A DNA stretch of 64,000 nt from an uncultured Chlamydiae bacterium (GTDB lineage Bacteria > Chlamydiota > Chlamydiia > Chlamydiales > JAJFMA01): contig CAVQMM010000001.1 of assembly GCA_963713615.1 (NCBI GenBank), positions 640,001-704,000 of the forward strand, read 5' to 3'. Below the pieces are notes generated by a model, which did no database searches, had not been told where the DNA came from, and saw nothing but the letters and a program-made list of their open reading frames with translations. Both the position numbers and the translations under genes were made by a program. Of this stretch, positions 5,991 through 60,802 are shown one piece after another. Numbering within the stretch: position 1 is the first letter of the stretch; each line of letters starts with the position of its first letter.

Positions 5991-6056
5991 GGCTCCAGAG
6001 CGCTGCGCGCGTGTTATTCACCGGCGTATGTAACACGACACTTATACAATTACCTC
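5991..6056 (-). mobile_element. Degenerate end fragment of the GAGG...CCTC shell element
   Basis: ggctccagagcgctgcgcgcgtgttattc...caattacctc matches the reverse complement of 51275-51340. Followed by aact-ggac. Confidence 0.7.
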
Positions 6057-6117
6057 AACTGGACAAAAAAATGAAGTCCATTTTTGTCCAGTTCGTCCAT
6101 AAGCCGCGCGGCTTAGT

Positions 6118-6276
6118 TCACAGGCGACCTGTTAGCAGCAGGATGACGATGATAATAACAAGGATAGTCAGCAGACCGCCACTGGGCCCATATCCCCAAC
6201 CGGCACTATAAGGCCATGTAGGTAAGGCTCCTAACAGAATAAGTATCAACACTACGATCAAAATGGTCTCGACCAT
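6118..6276 (-). CDS. Small membrane protein, DUF3309-like (52 aa)
   Basis: Manual translation: MVETILIVVLILILLGALPTWPYSAGWGYGPSGGLLTILVIIIVILLLTGRL. GGAGG RBS. Too short for the ORF track. Confidence 0.85.
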   Translation of the reverse strand: MVETILIVVLILILLGALPTWPYSAGWGYGPSGGLLTILVIIIVILLLTGRL

Positions 6277-6315
6277 GATCTTCCTCCAAACGCAGGGTGC
6301 GTTCTCTTTCGCGTT

Positions 6316-6396
6316 TTATAGGATTCCTACTAGCTTCAAAATAATCAGAAGTCCCAAAGGAACTCCTAGTAGCCATAGTATCAATATTTTTCCCAT
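6316..6396 (-). CDS. 26-aa small membrane protein
   Basis: MGKILILWLLGVPLGLLIILKLVGIL with AGGAGG RBS. Directly upstream of, and co-oriented with, the DUF3309-like gene. Confidence 0.65.
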   Translation of the reverse strand: MGKILILWLLGVPLGLLIILKLVGIL

Positions 6397-6565
6397 ATTC
6401 GCCTCCTGTGGCGATTGCCTTTTGTAAGGAGTGTTTCTAACCTCAACGTAAGCTACCGATGCTGGCATTGCAAGGTTTTTTTGTGCGTCAATTGTAGCGA
6501 CGTAATGTGCAATCTGGTAATCTGTGTAGCGCATTCTAATCATTCTAATCAAACAAGATACCGAT

Positions 6566-7552
6566 ATGACATCCAAAGATTCACCCTGTATTGTGGTCAC
6601 GGGGGGCGCAGGCTTTATTGGATCGGCGCTTATCCGTCACATGAACGATCTTGGCCTTGATAACATCATTGTTGTCGACAACCTTGGCACAGATGGTAAA
6701 TGGCTTAACCTTGTTGGTAAGCGCTTTGTTGATATCTTGCCCATTGATGGCTTACTGCCCTGGCTCGATGGACGACACGATGAGGTTGCCTCCTTTGTGC
6801 ATTTGGGCGCCTGTAGTAGTACCGTAGAGCAGGATGCTAGCTATCTTTTGGAAAACAACTATCGCTATACTCTCAAACTAGCGGAATATGCACTGAAGCA
6901 TAACAAGCGTTTTGTTTATGCCTCTTCTGCAGCGACGTATGGCGATGGGTCTCTAGGTTTTGATGATAGCCATGACATTTTAGACACGCTTCGGCCGCTC
7001 AACATGTATGGATATTCCAAGCATTTATTTGACCTTTGGGCTCTGCAACAAGGTGTTTTGGGTCAACTTGTAGGCATCAAATACTTCAACGTCTTTGGTC
7101 CAAATGAAGGTCATAAGGGGCGTATGGCTTCGGTGATTACTCAGATGGTGCCATCGATTCAGAAGGAGGGTGTCATCAGATTATTTAAATCGACTGACCC
7201 TGAGCAATATGAGGATGGTGGGCAGAAACGCGATTTTATTTACGTTAAAGATGCCGTGCGTATGACTTTAGCGCTCTTAAAAAGTGGCAAGGGTGGCATT
7301 TTCAATGTGGGGCGTGGTCAGGCTGAAACATGGAATGCATTGGCATCTGCGGTATTCACTGGCTTAGGTAAAAAGCCCCATATCGAGTATATCGACATGC
7401 CTAAGGACCTCGTGGGCAAGTACCAAAGCTATACGTGTGCCAATATGCATAAAACATCACTCGCCCTTGGAGGCGCAGCCTCTTGTAGTACTTTGGAAGA
7501 CAGTGTCATCGATTATGTTCAAAATTACTTAGTACCGGGGAAAACATGGTAA
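6566..7552 (+). CDS. hldD: ADP-L-glycero-D-manno-heptose 6-epimerase
   Basis: VTGGAGFIGS, HLGACSST, YASSAATYG, PLNMYGYSK and YFNVFGPNEGHKGRMAS motifs. Confidence 0.93.
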   Translation: MTSKDSPCIVVTGGAGFIGSALIRHMNDLGLDNIIVVDNLGTDGKWLNLVGKRFVDILPIDGLLPWLDGRHDEVASFVHLGACSSTVEQDASYLLENNYRYTLKLAEYALKHNKRFVYASSAATYGDGSLGFDDSHDILDTLRPLNMYGYSKHLFDLWALQQGVLGQLVGIKYFNVFGPNEGHKGRMASVITQMVPSIQKEGVIRLFKSTDPEQYEDGGQKRDFIYVKDAVRMTLALLKSGKGGIFNVGRGQAETWNALASAVFTGLGKKPHIEYIDMPKDLVGKYQSYTCANMHKTSLALGGAASCSTLEDSVIDYVQNYLVPGKTW

Positions 7553-58606: not shown

Positions 58607-59473
58607 ATGAAATGCCCAAATTGTGACGGTGAGGAATTTGAGTCAAAAAACATCCGCTTTAATCCCGAGATAAAAGGAGAGGAAGTTGAGGTAGTCGTGC
58701 CTTCTTTTGTTTGCATGAAGTGCCAAACGCCTTTGATGGATGGGGAGCAAATGAATGTGTTACGAAGAAGTGCTGCCGATAAATATCGAAAGCAGCACAA
58801 ACTTTTGACATCTGAAGAGATTATCAAATATCGCGCATCGCTTGGAATGTCCCAGGCTGCTTTTGCCAACTATTTAAAAGTTGGAGAAGCGAGTATCAAA
58901 CGTTGGGAGACCTATTTCGTACAGGATGTTGTTCAGGATGATCATATTCGTTTGAAATGCGATGAGGCTTATGCCGAACTTAATGCCCTTGAAGTTCATT
59001 GGAAGAGCCAATCCTCTGACATTTACAGCGGCAATAGGCCGTTTTGTTTAGAGCTGTTTAAACAAGCTGTGCGCTATTTGATAGGATTTACGAAAAGTCC
59101 TCTGTTTTTGAATAAAGCCTTATTTTATGCGGATTTTAAGCATTTTCAGAAATACGGAATGAGCATTACGGGAGCTAGATATGTTCATTTAGAATATGGT
59201 CCTTGCCCAGATCAGTTTCAAAGCATTTATCAGCTATTTCTCTCTAAAGGGGTGTTGATTTCGGCAGGACATCATATCTTGAAAAGCACCGAAAAGCCGG
59301 ATCTAAGCGTTTTTTCTGATTCAGAAAAAGAAATTTTAGAATTTGTTGCAAAAACTGCACACAAAGATGGGGGTCAAAAGCTTTTAAAAGCTTCCCATGA
59401 GGAACAAGCATTTAAGAAAACGGAGCCTTTACAACTCATCAGTTATGAATTTTCTAAACAGCTAAATATATAA
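58607..59473 (+). CDS. Antitoxin: MqsA-type Zn finger + XRE HTH + DUF4065 (Panacea/SocA-like) domain
   Basis: CPNC...CMKC; LGMSQAAFANYLKVGEASIKRWE; LNKALFYADF...SITG..Y....YGP...SHEE. Confidence 0.82.
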   Translation: MKCPNCDGEEFESKNIRFNPEIKGEEVEVVVPSFVCMKCQTPLMDGEQMNVLRRSAADKYRKQHKLLTSEEIIKYRASLGMSQAAFANYLKVGEASIKRWETYFVQDVVQDDHIRLKCDEAYAELNALEVHWKSQSSDIYSGNRPFCLELFKQAVRYLIGFTKSPLFLNKALFYADFKHFQKYGMSITGARYVHLEYGPCPDQFQSIYQLFLSKGVLISAGHHILKSTEKPDLSVFSDSEKEILEFVAKTAHKDGGQKLLKASHEEQAFKKTEPLQLISYEFSKQLNI

Positions 59474-59482
59474 CCAGAGGAT

Positions 59483-60391
59483 TTAAATGTTAGATAATAC
59501 TGAACAGCGTTCAAGAGGTTGCCAGGAAAAGGTTTCATCCGATCGATGAACATATCCTAATCCAGAGAGAGGAAGATGTGCACCGCCTACCAATAAGTGT
59601 TGATCAGCGGCTTTTGCAAACAAGGTTTTTCTGCTGTTAACAGCCTGTTTACCATCGACATCATAGATGATATACAATTCGGGATTGGAAAATTGCATGC
59701 CTGTGGTGTGAACTATATCGCCCCAAAGGAGTAAACCCTCATTTTGTGAACAACAAACGAATGCCATATGTCCCAGGGTGTGTCCAGGTGCCGCTATAGC
59801 GGTTATTCCTTGTATAATTGATTCACCTGAATGAAACAGACGAAGCCGATTGTTACGTTCATAAGGTGCCAGCATCTCCCGTGCAATATCGAAGAGAAAA
59901 CGTTTTTCCTCCTTTGCCCTTGATTCTTGCACACGGTCTCGCCAATAGGTTGCATCAATATCAGACACGCATAGAGTTGCATTTGGGAAAGTTGGAATTC
60001 CATCGGTATCCAACAACCCACCAATGTGATCAGGATGAATATGTGTAATAAGCACTAACGATATCTGCTCGGGGTTGTATCCTACACATCGTATTTGATT
60101 AATAAGATTCCCGGTTGCAACTCCGTATTTCTTGCCGCAGCCGGTATCAACCAAAATGACATTTTTACCGGTATCAATGAGGTATCCGTGTACCTCGGTG
60201 CGAACTGTAAGGTCATCCACACAAGGTACGTTGGCTTCGGTCAGTAGGTTACGCAATGCTTCAGGGTCAAGCCCAACAAACATTCTCTGATCAAGATCTA
60301 GGTACCCATCGCTCAGGGACCATATTGTCCAATCGCCTAACGAAACTCTTTGCACAGGTTGAAGACTTGTTTCCATGCACCTTTCGCTCAT
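59483..60391 (-). CDS. MBL-fold metallohydrolase (lactonase/organophosphate hydrolase-like)
   Basis: THIHPDHIGG, PGHTLGH, GDIVH and GAHLP motifs. Confidence 0.88.
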   Translation of the reverse strand: MSERCMETSLQPVQRVSLGDWTIWSLSDGYLDLDQRMFVGLDPEALRNLLTEANVPCVDDLTVRTEVHGYLIDTGKNVILVDTGCGKKYGVATGNLINQIRCVGYNPEQISLVLITHIHPDHIGGLLDTDGIPTFPNATLCVSDIDATYWRDRVQESRAKEEKRFLFDIAREMLAPYERNNRLRLFHSGESIIQGITAIAAPGHTLGHMAFVCCSQNEGLLLWGDIVHTTGMQFSNPELYIIYDVDGKQAVNSRKTLFAKAADQHLLVGGAHLPLSGLGYVHRSDETFSWQPLERCSVLSNI

Positions 60392-60485
60392 TTAATACTC
60401 CAACCATAATGACATTTTACAAAGCTAGGATCGGGATACAAAACAAGGTGAAAAATCCTCTTTGCAGAGACTTTGTCGGGTGAAA

Positions 60486-60567
60486 TGCCCAGGAGAGGAC
60501 TCGAACCTCCACACCTTACGGCACCAGAACCTAAATCTGGCGTGTCTACCAATTTCACCACCTGGGC
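60486..60567 (-). tRNA. tRNA-Leu (anticodon TAG)
   Basis: GCCCAGG acceptor stem, CCAGA-TT-TAG-GT-TCTGG anticodon arm, long variable arm, GGTTCGAGTCC T-loop. Confidence 0.95.
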
Positions 60568-60670
60568 TTGACGACACATACATCATAGCTTTCTAAGACC
60601 TTTTCGTCAAATAGTATGCAGTGTGTGCCTTTTTTTAACGCGAAGACGCAAAAGACGCAAAGAAGCTCTG

Positions 60671-60802
60671 GATGGACTAAAGGGACGAAAAGAACCTAAG
60701 GGACGAAAGGGACGAAAGGGACCTAAGGGACGAAAGGGACATAAAGGACTCAGGAATAATCTATAAGTCCTTTATGTCCCTTAGGTCCTTTAGTCCATCC
60801 AG
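60671..60802. repeat. 9-nt-period GGGAC tandem array with an inverted GTCC counterpart
   Basis: Repeated aagggacga/aagggacct/aagggacat units, then gtcctttatgtcccttaggtcctttagtcc. Confidence 0.85.

What the first reader, a model, noticed from the sequence alone, without database searches (positions are those of the whole stretch)
5991..60802. Outer shell sits at a GWCC-N4-GGWC palindrome, often within 9-nt GGAC tandem arrays
Seen in sequence: 10 of 13 shell ends lie exactly 4 nt from GWCC/GGWC. Left ends: 10363, 16695, 24654, 37233, 51275. Right ends: 6056, 11079, 25405, 51643, 55312. Exceptions are 12324 and 37973 (5 nt) and 17446 (7 nt). Two copies have matching 4-bp duplications (ATAT at 24650/25406; TTGA at 51271/51644). 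Flanks are often (nnnATGGAC)n or (AAGGGACnn)n arrays, and an apparently unoccupied site gtcc-ctta-ggtc lies in the array at 60776-60787. Inference: a sequence-specific transposase uses these short repeat arrays as landing sites. Mismatched TSDs in other copies may reflect recombination between copies.
Basis: partly seen in the sequence, partly recalled or inferred. Interest (0 to 1): 0.7.

Follow-up and report, generated by a model that had tools for sequence, protein, structure and literature searches.

The report
Miniature transposon landing in nine-base repeats
A gene-less miniature transposon with well over a hundred copies in this bacterial genome sits at a fixed distance from the short motif G-A/T-C repeated nine bases apart, most likely because its missing transposase reads that motif, so it keeps landing in repeat arrays that belong to a separate, little-known gene cassette.

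Summary
In detail: 10 of 13 window ends are 4 nt from GWCC. The motif needs correcting. Genome-wide, 201 of 272 unique ends have GWC at -8..-6 (background 2.6%). Of 44 copies with a 4-bp duplication, 35 fit GWC-n-[NNNN]-n-GWC and only 6 fit GWCC-N4-GGWC. The target is two GWC trimers 9 nt apart, mostly in direct-repeat arms. The shell is a MITE; relatives with such ends encode a DUF772+DDE transposase (IS1182/IS5-like, below family cut-offs), not found in this genome. The GGAC arrays are independent: 72 of 128 lie over 200 nt from a shell, they flank four-helix-bundle (TIGR04258) genes, and five array-rich genomes show no shell end. Arrays supply most free sites but are not preferred beyond the motif. 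Copies without duplications are mostly those with mirror-image flanks, as expected if two insertions in one array recombined. Repeat-targeting insertion sequences are known; I found this pairing in no paper searched. The scan reported repeat-flanked four-helix-bundle cassettes before, on other DNA.

The parts
6040..6056 (-). Orphan shell terminal inverted repeat (2 mismatches); no partner end found
6061..6098 (.). Remaining GGAC/GTCC array pair; shell-free paralogues elsewhere in the genome
10300..10362 (.). Convergent 9-nt GGAC/GTCC array pair to the left of a shell
10363..11079 (+). Shell (MITE), 717 bp; no duplication (CTTT / TTTA); flanks match a shell-free array with 5 nt between them
12308..12324 (-). 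Orphan shell end, 5 nt from GGAC
12329..12353 (+). 9-nt GGAC array arm; five shell-free paralogues found
16695..17446 (-). Shell, 752 bp; no duplication; the same flanks occur at two other genome places, so it was copied inside a larger repeat
24654..25405 (+). Shell, 752 bp, with 4-bp duplication ATAT in GTCC-ATAT-GGAC; internal inverted modules including a REP-like doublet
25410..25442 (+). 9-nt GGAC array arm right of the shell
37233..37973 (-). Shell, 741 bp; mirror-type flanks, no exact duplication; flanks match a shell-free array with 57 nt between them
51275..51643 (.). Older shell variant, 369 bp, different interior, degenerate right end, 4-bp duplication TTGA in GAC-N6-GAC
55296..55312 (-). 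Shell end with interior homology reaching to about 54780; other end not found
60670..60800 (.). Shell-free convergent GGAC/GTCC array pair (free target sites); predicted DNA hairpin, z = -6.7

Best explanation
The shell is a gene-less miniature transposon whose ends sit at a fixed distance from the motif GWC-n-[NNNN]-n-GWC, most likely because a DUF772+DDE transposase, supplied from outside and not found in this genome, reads the two GWC trimers and duplicates the four AT-rich bases between them. Shown: 17-bp terminal inverted repeats, 4-bp duplications, the target consensus, independent arrays, and relatives with the same ends around such a transposase. Because GAC and GTC are each other's complement, any 9-nt GGAC array offers a row of valid sites in either direction. 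The arrays are a separate repeat family: arms that bracket four-helix-bundle genes, plus many gene-less arm pairs. Inferred: a symmetric transposase dimer makes a 4-nt (sometimes 5-nt) staggered cut; when two copies land in direct orientation in one array pair, recombination between them gives either one copy with mirror-image flanks and no duplication, or tandem runs of shell plus array centre; the donor transposase belongs to a chlamydial clade whose members each favour a short symmetric site inside a host repeat.
For: 326 ends genome-wide against 2 in the reversed control. GWC at -8..-6 in 201 of 272 unique ends, 25 more one base further out, background 2.6%. 44 of 99 unique pairs have an exact 4-bp duplication and 4 a 5-bp one; shuffled partners give 5.2 (max 15 in 2000). 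35 of the 44 have GWC on both sides, 9 on one; 13 of 44 reconstructed 22-nt sites exist unoccupied elsewhere within 1 mismatch. Duplication rate by flank class: direct arm 29 of 38, GAC+GAC 3 of 20, GTC+GTC 3 of 10. 12 of 51 duplication-less pairs match a shell-free array with 5-57 nt between the flanks. Tandem runs of shell plus 43-nt or 22-nt array centre, all direct; the 43-nt junction also stands in contigs of 3 of 4 public runs laid. Arrays: 72 of 128 clusters over 200 nt from any end; 22 of 25 TIGR04258 loci have an exact 9-nt GGAC pair within 170 nt; no end found in array-rich G004, G149, G270, G212, G250. Autonomous elements with GAG-N4-TTGCA ends; G154 fragments with the exact 12-mer beside transposase pieces, in a clade with 100% SH-aLRT; G281's element in one GTCC-N5-GGAC site 10 of 10 times, 5 in each orientation, 5-bp duplication. 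Related MITEs at GWC-N5 in G001 7 of 11, G002 10 of 11, G003 7 of 8, G140 7 of 9, G240 3 of 4, G244 6 of 10, G251 14 of 29 ends examined.
Against: No cognate transposase in this genome or in the three other genomes of its genus with the query used, so the enzyme is inferred from relatives. The one complete element with the exact left 17-mer (L055) lies in the other clade and has AT-rich flanks without GWC, so the end sequence does not fix the clade. 51 of 99 unique pairs lack a duplication and 39 of those 51 found no matching shell-free array; that search had no chance control. 96 of 326 ends are unpaired. 46 of 272 unique ends have no GWC at either offset. No empty allele of any window site was seen: relatives are only 64-77% identical and public contigs were too shallow. 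No inverted double insertion was seen, which random orientation would predict unless such doubles are unstable. Ends in G006 (0 of 6), G026 (0 of 7), G288 (0 of 2) and G191 (0 of 1) are not at GWC although these genomes have arrays.
Confidence: 0.75

Rival explanations
1. Structure-directed insertion: the transposase recognises the hairpin or cruciform that a convergent array pair can form and sometimes replaces its centre in one step, as proposed for IS1272; the GWC consensus only mirrors what the arrays are made of.
For: Array pairs fold well as DNA (z = -6.7). Mirror-flanked copies mostly lack duplications (6 of 30 have one) and 12 of 51 duplication-less pairs fit loss of 5-57 nt of an array; IS1272 targets of 21-85 bp are replaced without duplication (PMC5678879). 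Sister elements use other symmetric sites: CCCC-N4-GGGG in G417, GCCC-flanked sites in G154, a hairpin centre in G006. No inverted doubles.
Against: Most duplicated sites lie in direct-repeat arms, not hairpin loops (29 of 44); 12 of 35 full-motif sites have no third unit; the offset to GWC is fixed to the base; tandem runs carrying the array centre are the reciprocal product of two-insertion recombination.
Confidence: 0.12
2. Piggy-backing on a host factor: the four-helix-bundle protein binds its GGAC arrays and recruits or positions the transposase.
For: GWC targeting was seen only in chlamydial genomes that have the arrays; GWC stood at the left flank of 0 and the right flank of 1 of 30 paired elements in named non-chlamydial records. 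11 of 14 array-rich genomes carry a TIGR04258 gene against 7 of the other 286 (taken as the same draw).
Against: No excess of array sites among occupied sites (23 of 35 against 293 of 459). G251 has 58 ends, 14 of 29 examined at GWC, and no TIGR04258 hit. G281's element uses GTCC-N5-GGAC in a different repeat in a genome with almost no arrays. No binding test was run.
Confidence: 0.08
3. The arrays are part of the element or are footprints of its repeated insertion and excision.
For: 37 of 128 array clusters lie within 15 nt of an end; some copies share long flanks (55-147 nt) and so moved inside larger repeats; G281's element ends begin with GGGAC.
Against: Duplications place the boundary at the GAGG end; flanks differ between copies; 72 of 128 clusters are far from any end; arrays abound in five genomes where no end was found and track four-helix-bundle genes; this shell's ends contain no GGAC at the cut.
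Confidence: 0.03
4. Insertion is unspecific and copies survive only in harmless intergenic repeats.
For: Only 44 of 268 unique ends have an outer flank inside an approximate ORF mask that covers 84% of the chromosome, so selection does shape where copies persist.
Against: Survival cannot give a base-exact offset (201 of 272 against 2.6%) nor 10 of 10 identical sites in G281.
Confidence: 0.02

Closest known systems
REP-targeting insertion sequences (ISRm22, ISPsy8, IS1397, ISKpn1; PMC1525189, passages read)
   Same: All or most copies sit at one point of a dispersed host repeat, with a short duplication; hybrid copies with unmatched duplications are ascribed to recombination between copies.
   Different: The mover here is a gene-less MITE; the target is a 3+3-base motif with 9-nt spacing supplied by tandem arrays of a four-helix-bundle cassette, not a REP; many adjacent sites per array allow double insertions and tandem runs.
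IS1182 family, including IS1272 (PMC5678879: abstract, passages and first part of the Discussion read; its statement that some IS1182 members target palindromes cites Siguier et al., which I did not see)
   Same: DUF772 + DDE transposase architecture in the relatives, symmetric targets, copies without duplications where an inverted repeat has lost its centre.
   Different: Relatives' transposases are 368-375 aa and score 74-82 bits against a 270-bit cut-off for NF033551; here nearly half of copies do have 4-5-bp duplications and the target has a sequence consensus, whereas IS1272 is reported to read structure and leave none.
Prokaryotic MITEs (general class; PMC10969869 seen as search listing only)
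   Same: Short, multi-copy, terminal inverted repeats, target duplication, no transposase.
   Different: Long mosaic interior carrying REP-like modules that an IS66 element in turn targets; strong target consensus.
Four-helix-bundle proteins TIGR02436 / TIGR04258 (23S rRNA intervening-sequence protein family)
   Same: Two genes in this genome pass both cut-offs and sit between or beside GGAC arrays.
   Different: This names the owner of the arrays, not the shell; the families' descriptions returned by the scan say nothing of arrays, and my paper searches returned no paper on it. Earlier unchecked notes of this scan describe such cassettes in other genomes.

Membership tests
MITE (non-autonomous IS derivative) | Terminal inverted repeats | tested here: met
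   17-mer ends, 326 genome-wide against 2 in control; 122 facing pairs
MITE (non-autonomous IS derivative) | Target-site duplication | tested here: met
   44 (4 bp) + 4 (5 bp) of 99 unique pairs, 5.2 expected; 51 lack one
MITE (non-autonomous IS derivative) | No transposase of its own, many copies | tested here: met
   Modal lengths about 430 and 750 bp; long copies hold nested unrelated elements such as IS66
MITE (non-autonomous IS derivative) | Autonomous partner with the same ends | tested here: inconclusive
   Found in other genomes (L055; G154 fragments), not in this one
MITE (non-autonomous IS derivative) | Filled versus empty orthologous site | tested here: inconclusive
   Paralogous empty sites found; one orthologous spacer in G003 has a shell-free array; no same-sequence empty allele
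IS1182 family (for the partner transposase) | DUF772 plus DDE_Tnp_1 domains with an invariant D-D-E | tested here: met
   Pfam above cut-off; D146, D270, E331 invariant in 13 sequences (their reading as the catalytic triad is my inference)
IS1182 family (for the partner transposase) | Score above NCBIfam NF033551 cut-off | tested here: not met
   82 and 73.6 bits against 270; best hit, but not filed as a member
IS5 family (for the partner transposase) | Score above an NCBIfam IS5 model cut-off | tested here: not met
   At most 56 bits against 110-140
IS1182 / IS5 (ISfinder assignment) | Placement against curated ISfinder members | not testable with these tools
   No ISfinder copy available
REP-targeting IS | Insertion at a fixed point of a dispersed host repeat | tested here: met
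   Fixed offset to GWC; G281 10 of 10
REP-targeting IS | Target is a REP palindrome | tested here: not met
   Target is mostly a direct 9-nt repeat arm (29 of 44) tied to four-helix-bundle genes
IS1272-type inverted-repeat replacement | No target duplication | tested here: not met
   48 of 99 unique pairs have one
IS1272-type inverted-repeat replacement | One-step deletion of the target stem-loop | tested here: inconclusive
   12 of 51 duplication-less pairs fit loss of 5-57 nt, but two-step recombination predicts the same

The most novel reading that the evidence does not exclude
An unnamed chlamydial clade of DUF772+DDE transposases retunes its target to whichever repeat family its host carries (GWC arrays, GCCC- or CCCC-type palindromes), and in this lineage it has locked onto the 9-nt arms of four-helix-bundle cassettes, possibly through the protein bound there. 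That would make a four-level chain of parasites (IS66 in a REP doublet, in the MITE, in the cassette's arms) and give a natural set of variants for finding what programs DDE target choice and a reporter for what the cassette arms do.
Probability: 0.2. Interest if true: 0.7.

Novelty: new variant of a known kind. Interest (0 to 1): 0.45.

Why it matters
It gives an exact, well-sampled target rule for a transposase group that falls outside the curated IS1182 and IS5 models, and close relatives with different rules, which makes target recognition in this group directly testable. It also shows how a short periodic array turns a sequence-specific element into a source of local deletions, tandem runs and recombination substrates in an environmental chlamydia with a 4-Mb genome, and ties the arrays to the poorly understood four-helix-bundle cassettes. 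The general principle, a mobile element that targets a host repeat, is already known.

Tried and rejected
1) The 3055-bp copies as the autonomous element: they are a 752-bp shell plus a nested IS66. 2) Other transposases of this genome as the partner: 11 distinct DDE_Tnp_1 loci and 6 Y1 loci were checked and none is bounded by shell ends, though some sit inside or beside shells; DUF772 absent; tblastn and a 13-sequence profile with filters off gave nothing below E 0.19 and 2. 3) Orthologous empty sites in G001-G003: too diverged, spacers hold other repeats; one shell-free array in G003. 4) Empty alleles in public runs: no joint skipping a shell in 6 distinct runs laid, cover thin, so no evidence either way; habitat labels not used. 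6) A transposase insertion that marks the targeting clade: the segment missing in P0001 is present in both clades. 7) Solved-structure relatives of P0002: none at E 1. 8) Rfam: only two tRNAs in the window. 9) I recalled that PMC4679880 links repeats to four-helix-bundle proteins; a term search of its main text found no such words. PMC4853749 was not relevant. 10) GxxExY (PF13366) genes were located but not followed up. No structure or complex prediction was run.
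Full report
Observation. GWCC occurs at 0.58% of positions. The two duplications (ATAT, TTGA) and the free site at 60776-60787 are real. The window lies in a 3.97-Mb, 3-contig genome, 99% complete. I place it among environmental Chlamydiota by inference: its order holds many 1.0-1.3-Mb genomes, and records titled Chlamydiae carry the same ends with the same flanks.

The element. A 17-mer end motif occurs 326 times genome-wide with up to 2 mismatches, against 2 in the reversed control; 272 have distinct outer 20-mers. 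122 facing pairs lie within 6 kb, mostly about 430 and 750 bp. After removing repeated flank pairs and spans over 3300 bp, 99 remain: 44 have an exact 4-bp duplication and 4 a 5-bp one, against a shuffled mean of 5.2 (maximum 15 in 2000). 96 of 326 ends are unpaired. The interior is a mosaic of inverted modules. The 3055-bp copies are shells with a nested IS66.

The target. The flank logo peaks at G(-8, 79%), A/T(-7), C(-6, 85%) followed by AT-rich bases. GAC stands there in 121 and GTC in 80 of 272 ends; 25 more are shifted by one base and 46 have neither; background is 2.6%. Of the 44 duplicated sites, 35 have GWC on both sides, 9 on one, and only 6 fit the strict GWCC-N4-GGWC. The rule is therefore GWC-n-[NNNN]-n-GWC: two trimers 9 nt apart. 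13 of the 44 reconstructed 22-nt sites exist unoccupied elsewhere within one mismatch, and window ends 6056, 12324 and 25405 have shell-free paralogous arrays.

The arrays. GGAC-to-GGAC spacing peaks at 9, 18 and 27 nt (276, 156, 94 pairs against mostly 11-52 elsewhere, 68-69 at 10 and 19). There are 128 array clusters (298 raw hits, control 16): 37 within 15 nt of a shell end, 72 more than 200 nt away; many are inverted arm pairs, and the one at 60670-60800 folds with z = -6.7. Two genes for four-helix-bundle proteins (TIGR02436 and TIGR04258 above cut-off) sit between or beside such arms. Of 25 TIGR04258 loci from 18 of 300 genomes, 22 have an exact 9-nt GGAC pair within 170 nt (20 of 23 without this genome). 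11 of 14 genomes with at least 20 array hits on each strand carry the gene, against 7 of the other 286 (I take the two draws as the same set; kin are not independent). No shell end was found, with the patterns used, in array-rich G004 (79% complete), G149, G270, G212 and G250. The arrays are thus a separate family. I tested this link from my own recall before reading earlier scan notes, which describe such cassettes in other genomes (unchecked).

Are arrays preferred? Among free, non-coding, AT-rich GWC-N6-GWC sites on the chromosome, 293 of 459 have a third unit 9 nt away; among occupied full-motif sites 23 of 35 do (approximate ORF mask). Arrays supply about two thirds of the usable sites and are hit in proportion. 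The 1135 matching sites in ORFs are almost unused (44 of 268 ends have a flank in the mask), which I read as selection.

The missing transposase. None was found in this genome. One, L055, has the exact left end, a matching right end and a 368-aa DUF772+DDE_Tnp_1 gene. Relatives occur in 24 of 400 genomes of the phylum, none in this genus with that query, and are bounded by GAG-N4-TTGCA ends. They score best on the IS1182 model but far below cut-off (82 and 74 against 270 bits), and below the IS5 models. A quick tree of 24 sequences, 8 of them fragments, splits them into two clades (100% SH-aLRT, no bootstrap, midpoint root). In one, flanks are AT-rich without a motif (G105: 4-bp duplications in 3 of 5 copies); L055 belongs here, which counts against reading the clade from the end sequence. 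In the other, every element examined abuts a short symmetric site: G281's 1462-bp element lies in one GTCC-N5-GGAC site in 10 of 10 complete copies, 5 in each orientation, with a 5-bp duplication; G417 uses CCCC-N4-GGGG and G154 GCCC-flanked sites; G154 fragments carry the exact 12-mer next to transposase pieces. MITEs with these ends sit at GWC-N5 in G001 7 of 11, G002 10 of 11, G003 7 of 8, G140 7 of 9, G240 3 of 4, G244 6 of 10 and G251 14 of 29, but 0 of 6 in G006, 0 of 7 in G026, 0 of 2 in G288 and 0 of 1 in G191. These counts cover only ends inside the loci returned (G140 has 135 matches, G251 58). Among 30 paired elements in named non-chlamydial records, 16 have 4-bp duplications, and GWC stands at 0 left and 1 right flank. 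I infer that the shell derives from the second clade.

Copies without duplications. The rate depends on flank geometry: 29 of 38 in direct arms, 3 of 20 with GAC on both sides, 3 of 10 with GTC on both sides. Of 51 duplication-less pairs, 12 match a shell-free array with 5-57 nt between the flanks, 1 matches only by overlap and 38 match nothing (no chance control). Four tandem runs repeat shell plus a 43-nt or 22-nt array centre in direct orientation, and the 43-nt junction stands in contigs of 3 of 4 public runs (these may not be independent of the source). Two direct insertions in one arm pair followed by unequal recombination would give both products. One-step replacement as proposed for IS1272 (PMC5678879: abstract, passages, first part of Discussion) gives the deletions but not the runs; the lack of inverted doubles keeps it alive. 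Recombination and adjacent deletion are standard causes of missing duplications (PMC1525189 and PMC11708052, passages). Some mismatched copies, including 16695-17446, were copied inside a larger repeat.

Comparison and novelty. It works like a REP-targeting insertion sequence and is a MITE; it is not filed in IS1182 or IS5, whose model cut-offs its relatives fail. Eight full-text searches showed no paper on this end motif, on a MITE in 9-nt GGAC arrays, or on arrays at four-helix-bundle genes; most subscription journals and ISfinder are outside the library, and I read no supplements. Verdict: real, motif corrected, mechanism likely but untested; a new variant of a known kind; interest 0.45.

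Noticed in passing
G000:C1, e.g. L001 (598665-601719); window 10538-10561 for the target unit: An IS66 element (Pfam) inserts at one point of the REP-like doublet carried inside the shell: 34 of 36 IS66 ends have the REP word within 12 nt, at several symmetric positions of the shell.
   Followed up: partly
L024, G000:C1:3256780-3256998: A Y1_Tnp gene (RAYT-like by my recall) is flanked by tandem variants of the same REP-like unit that sits inside the shell; 233 genome copies within 3 mismatches.
   Followed up: partly
G000:C1:476526-478848, 1173286-1175179, 2273505-2280484, 2600817-2603043: Tandem runs of 5-9 shells with a constant 43-nt or 22-nt array spacer; three distant runs share the 43-nt spacer and some outer flanks. 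They resemble a CRISPR layout only superficially: spacers are constant.
   Followed up: partly
L190:1412-2072 and L191:1337-2200: Two four-helix-bundle suffix-domain genes bracketed by GGAC arrays; one lies right behind a gene that looks like coaD (my reading of the translation, no library scan).
   Followed up: yes
L268, L271, L031 (G003) and L185-L189 (G281): The repeat that G281's element targets appears inside G003's MITE, just behind its end.
   Followed up: no
L050 (a Chlamydiae record) and window-orthologous spacers in G002 (L232, L235): A shell of 806 bp in a hairpin centre carries CACAGAG-type 9-nt repeats, a second periodic family; the same repeats stand in G002 spacers.
   Followed up: no
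window 37000-37163, 53871-53936, 54557-54728: Another dispersed repeat with inverted ends (AGGTGAACAAGGCC-like) next to shell copies; also a different palindromic family at 38190-38345 and 51348-51553.
   Followed up: no
window 25614-34725: Chemotaxis cluster (methyl-accepting protein, CheA-like kinase) in a chlamydial genome.
   Followed up: no
window 41318-50299: 2993-aa GH94/glucoamylase protein, likely a cyclic beta-glucan synthase by my recall of the architecture.
   Followed up: no
window 11109-12023: OTU-like cysteine protease gene between two shell ends; G003 has a related gene at the same place.
   Followed up: no
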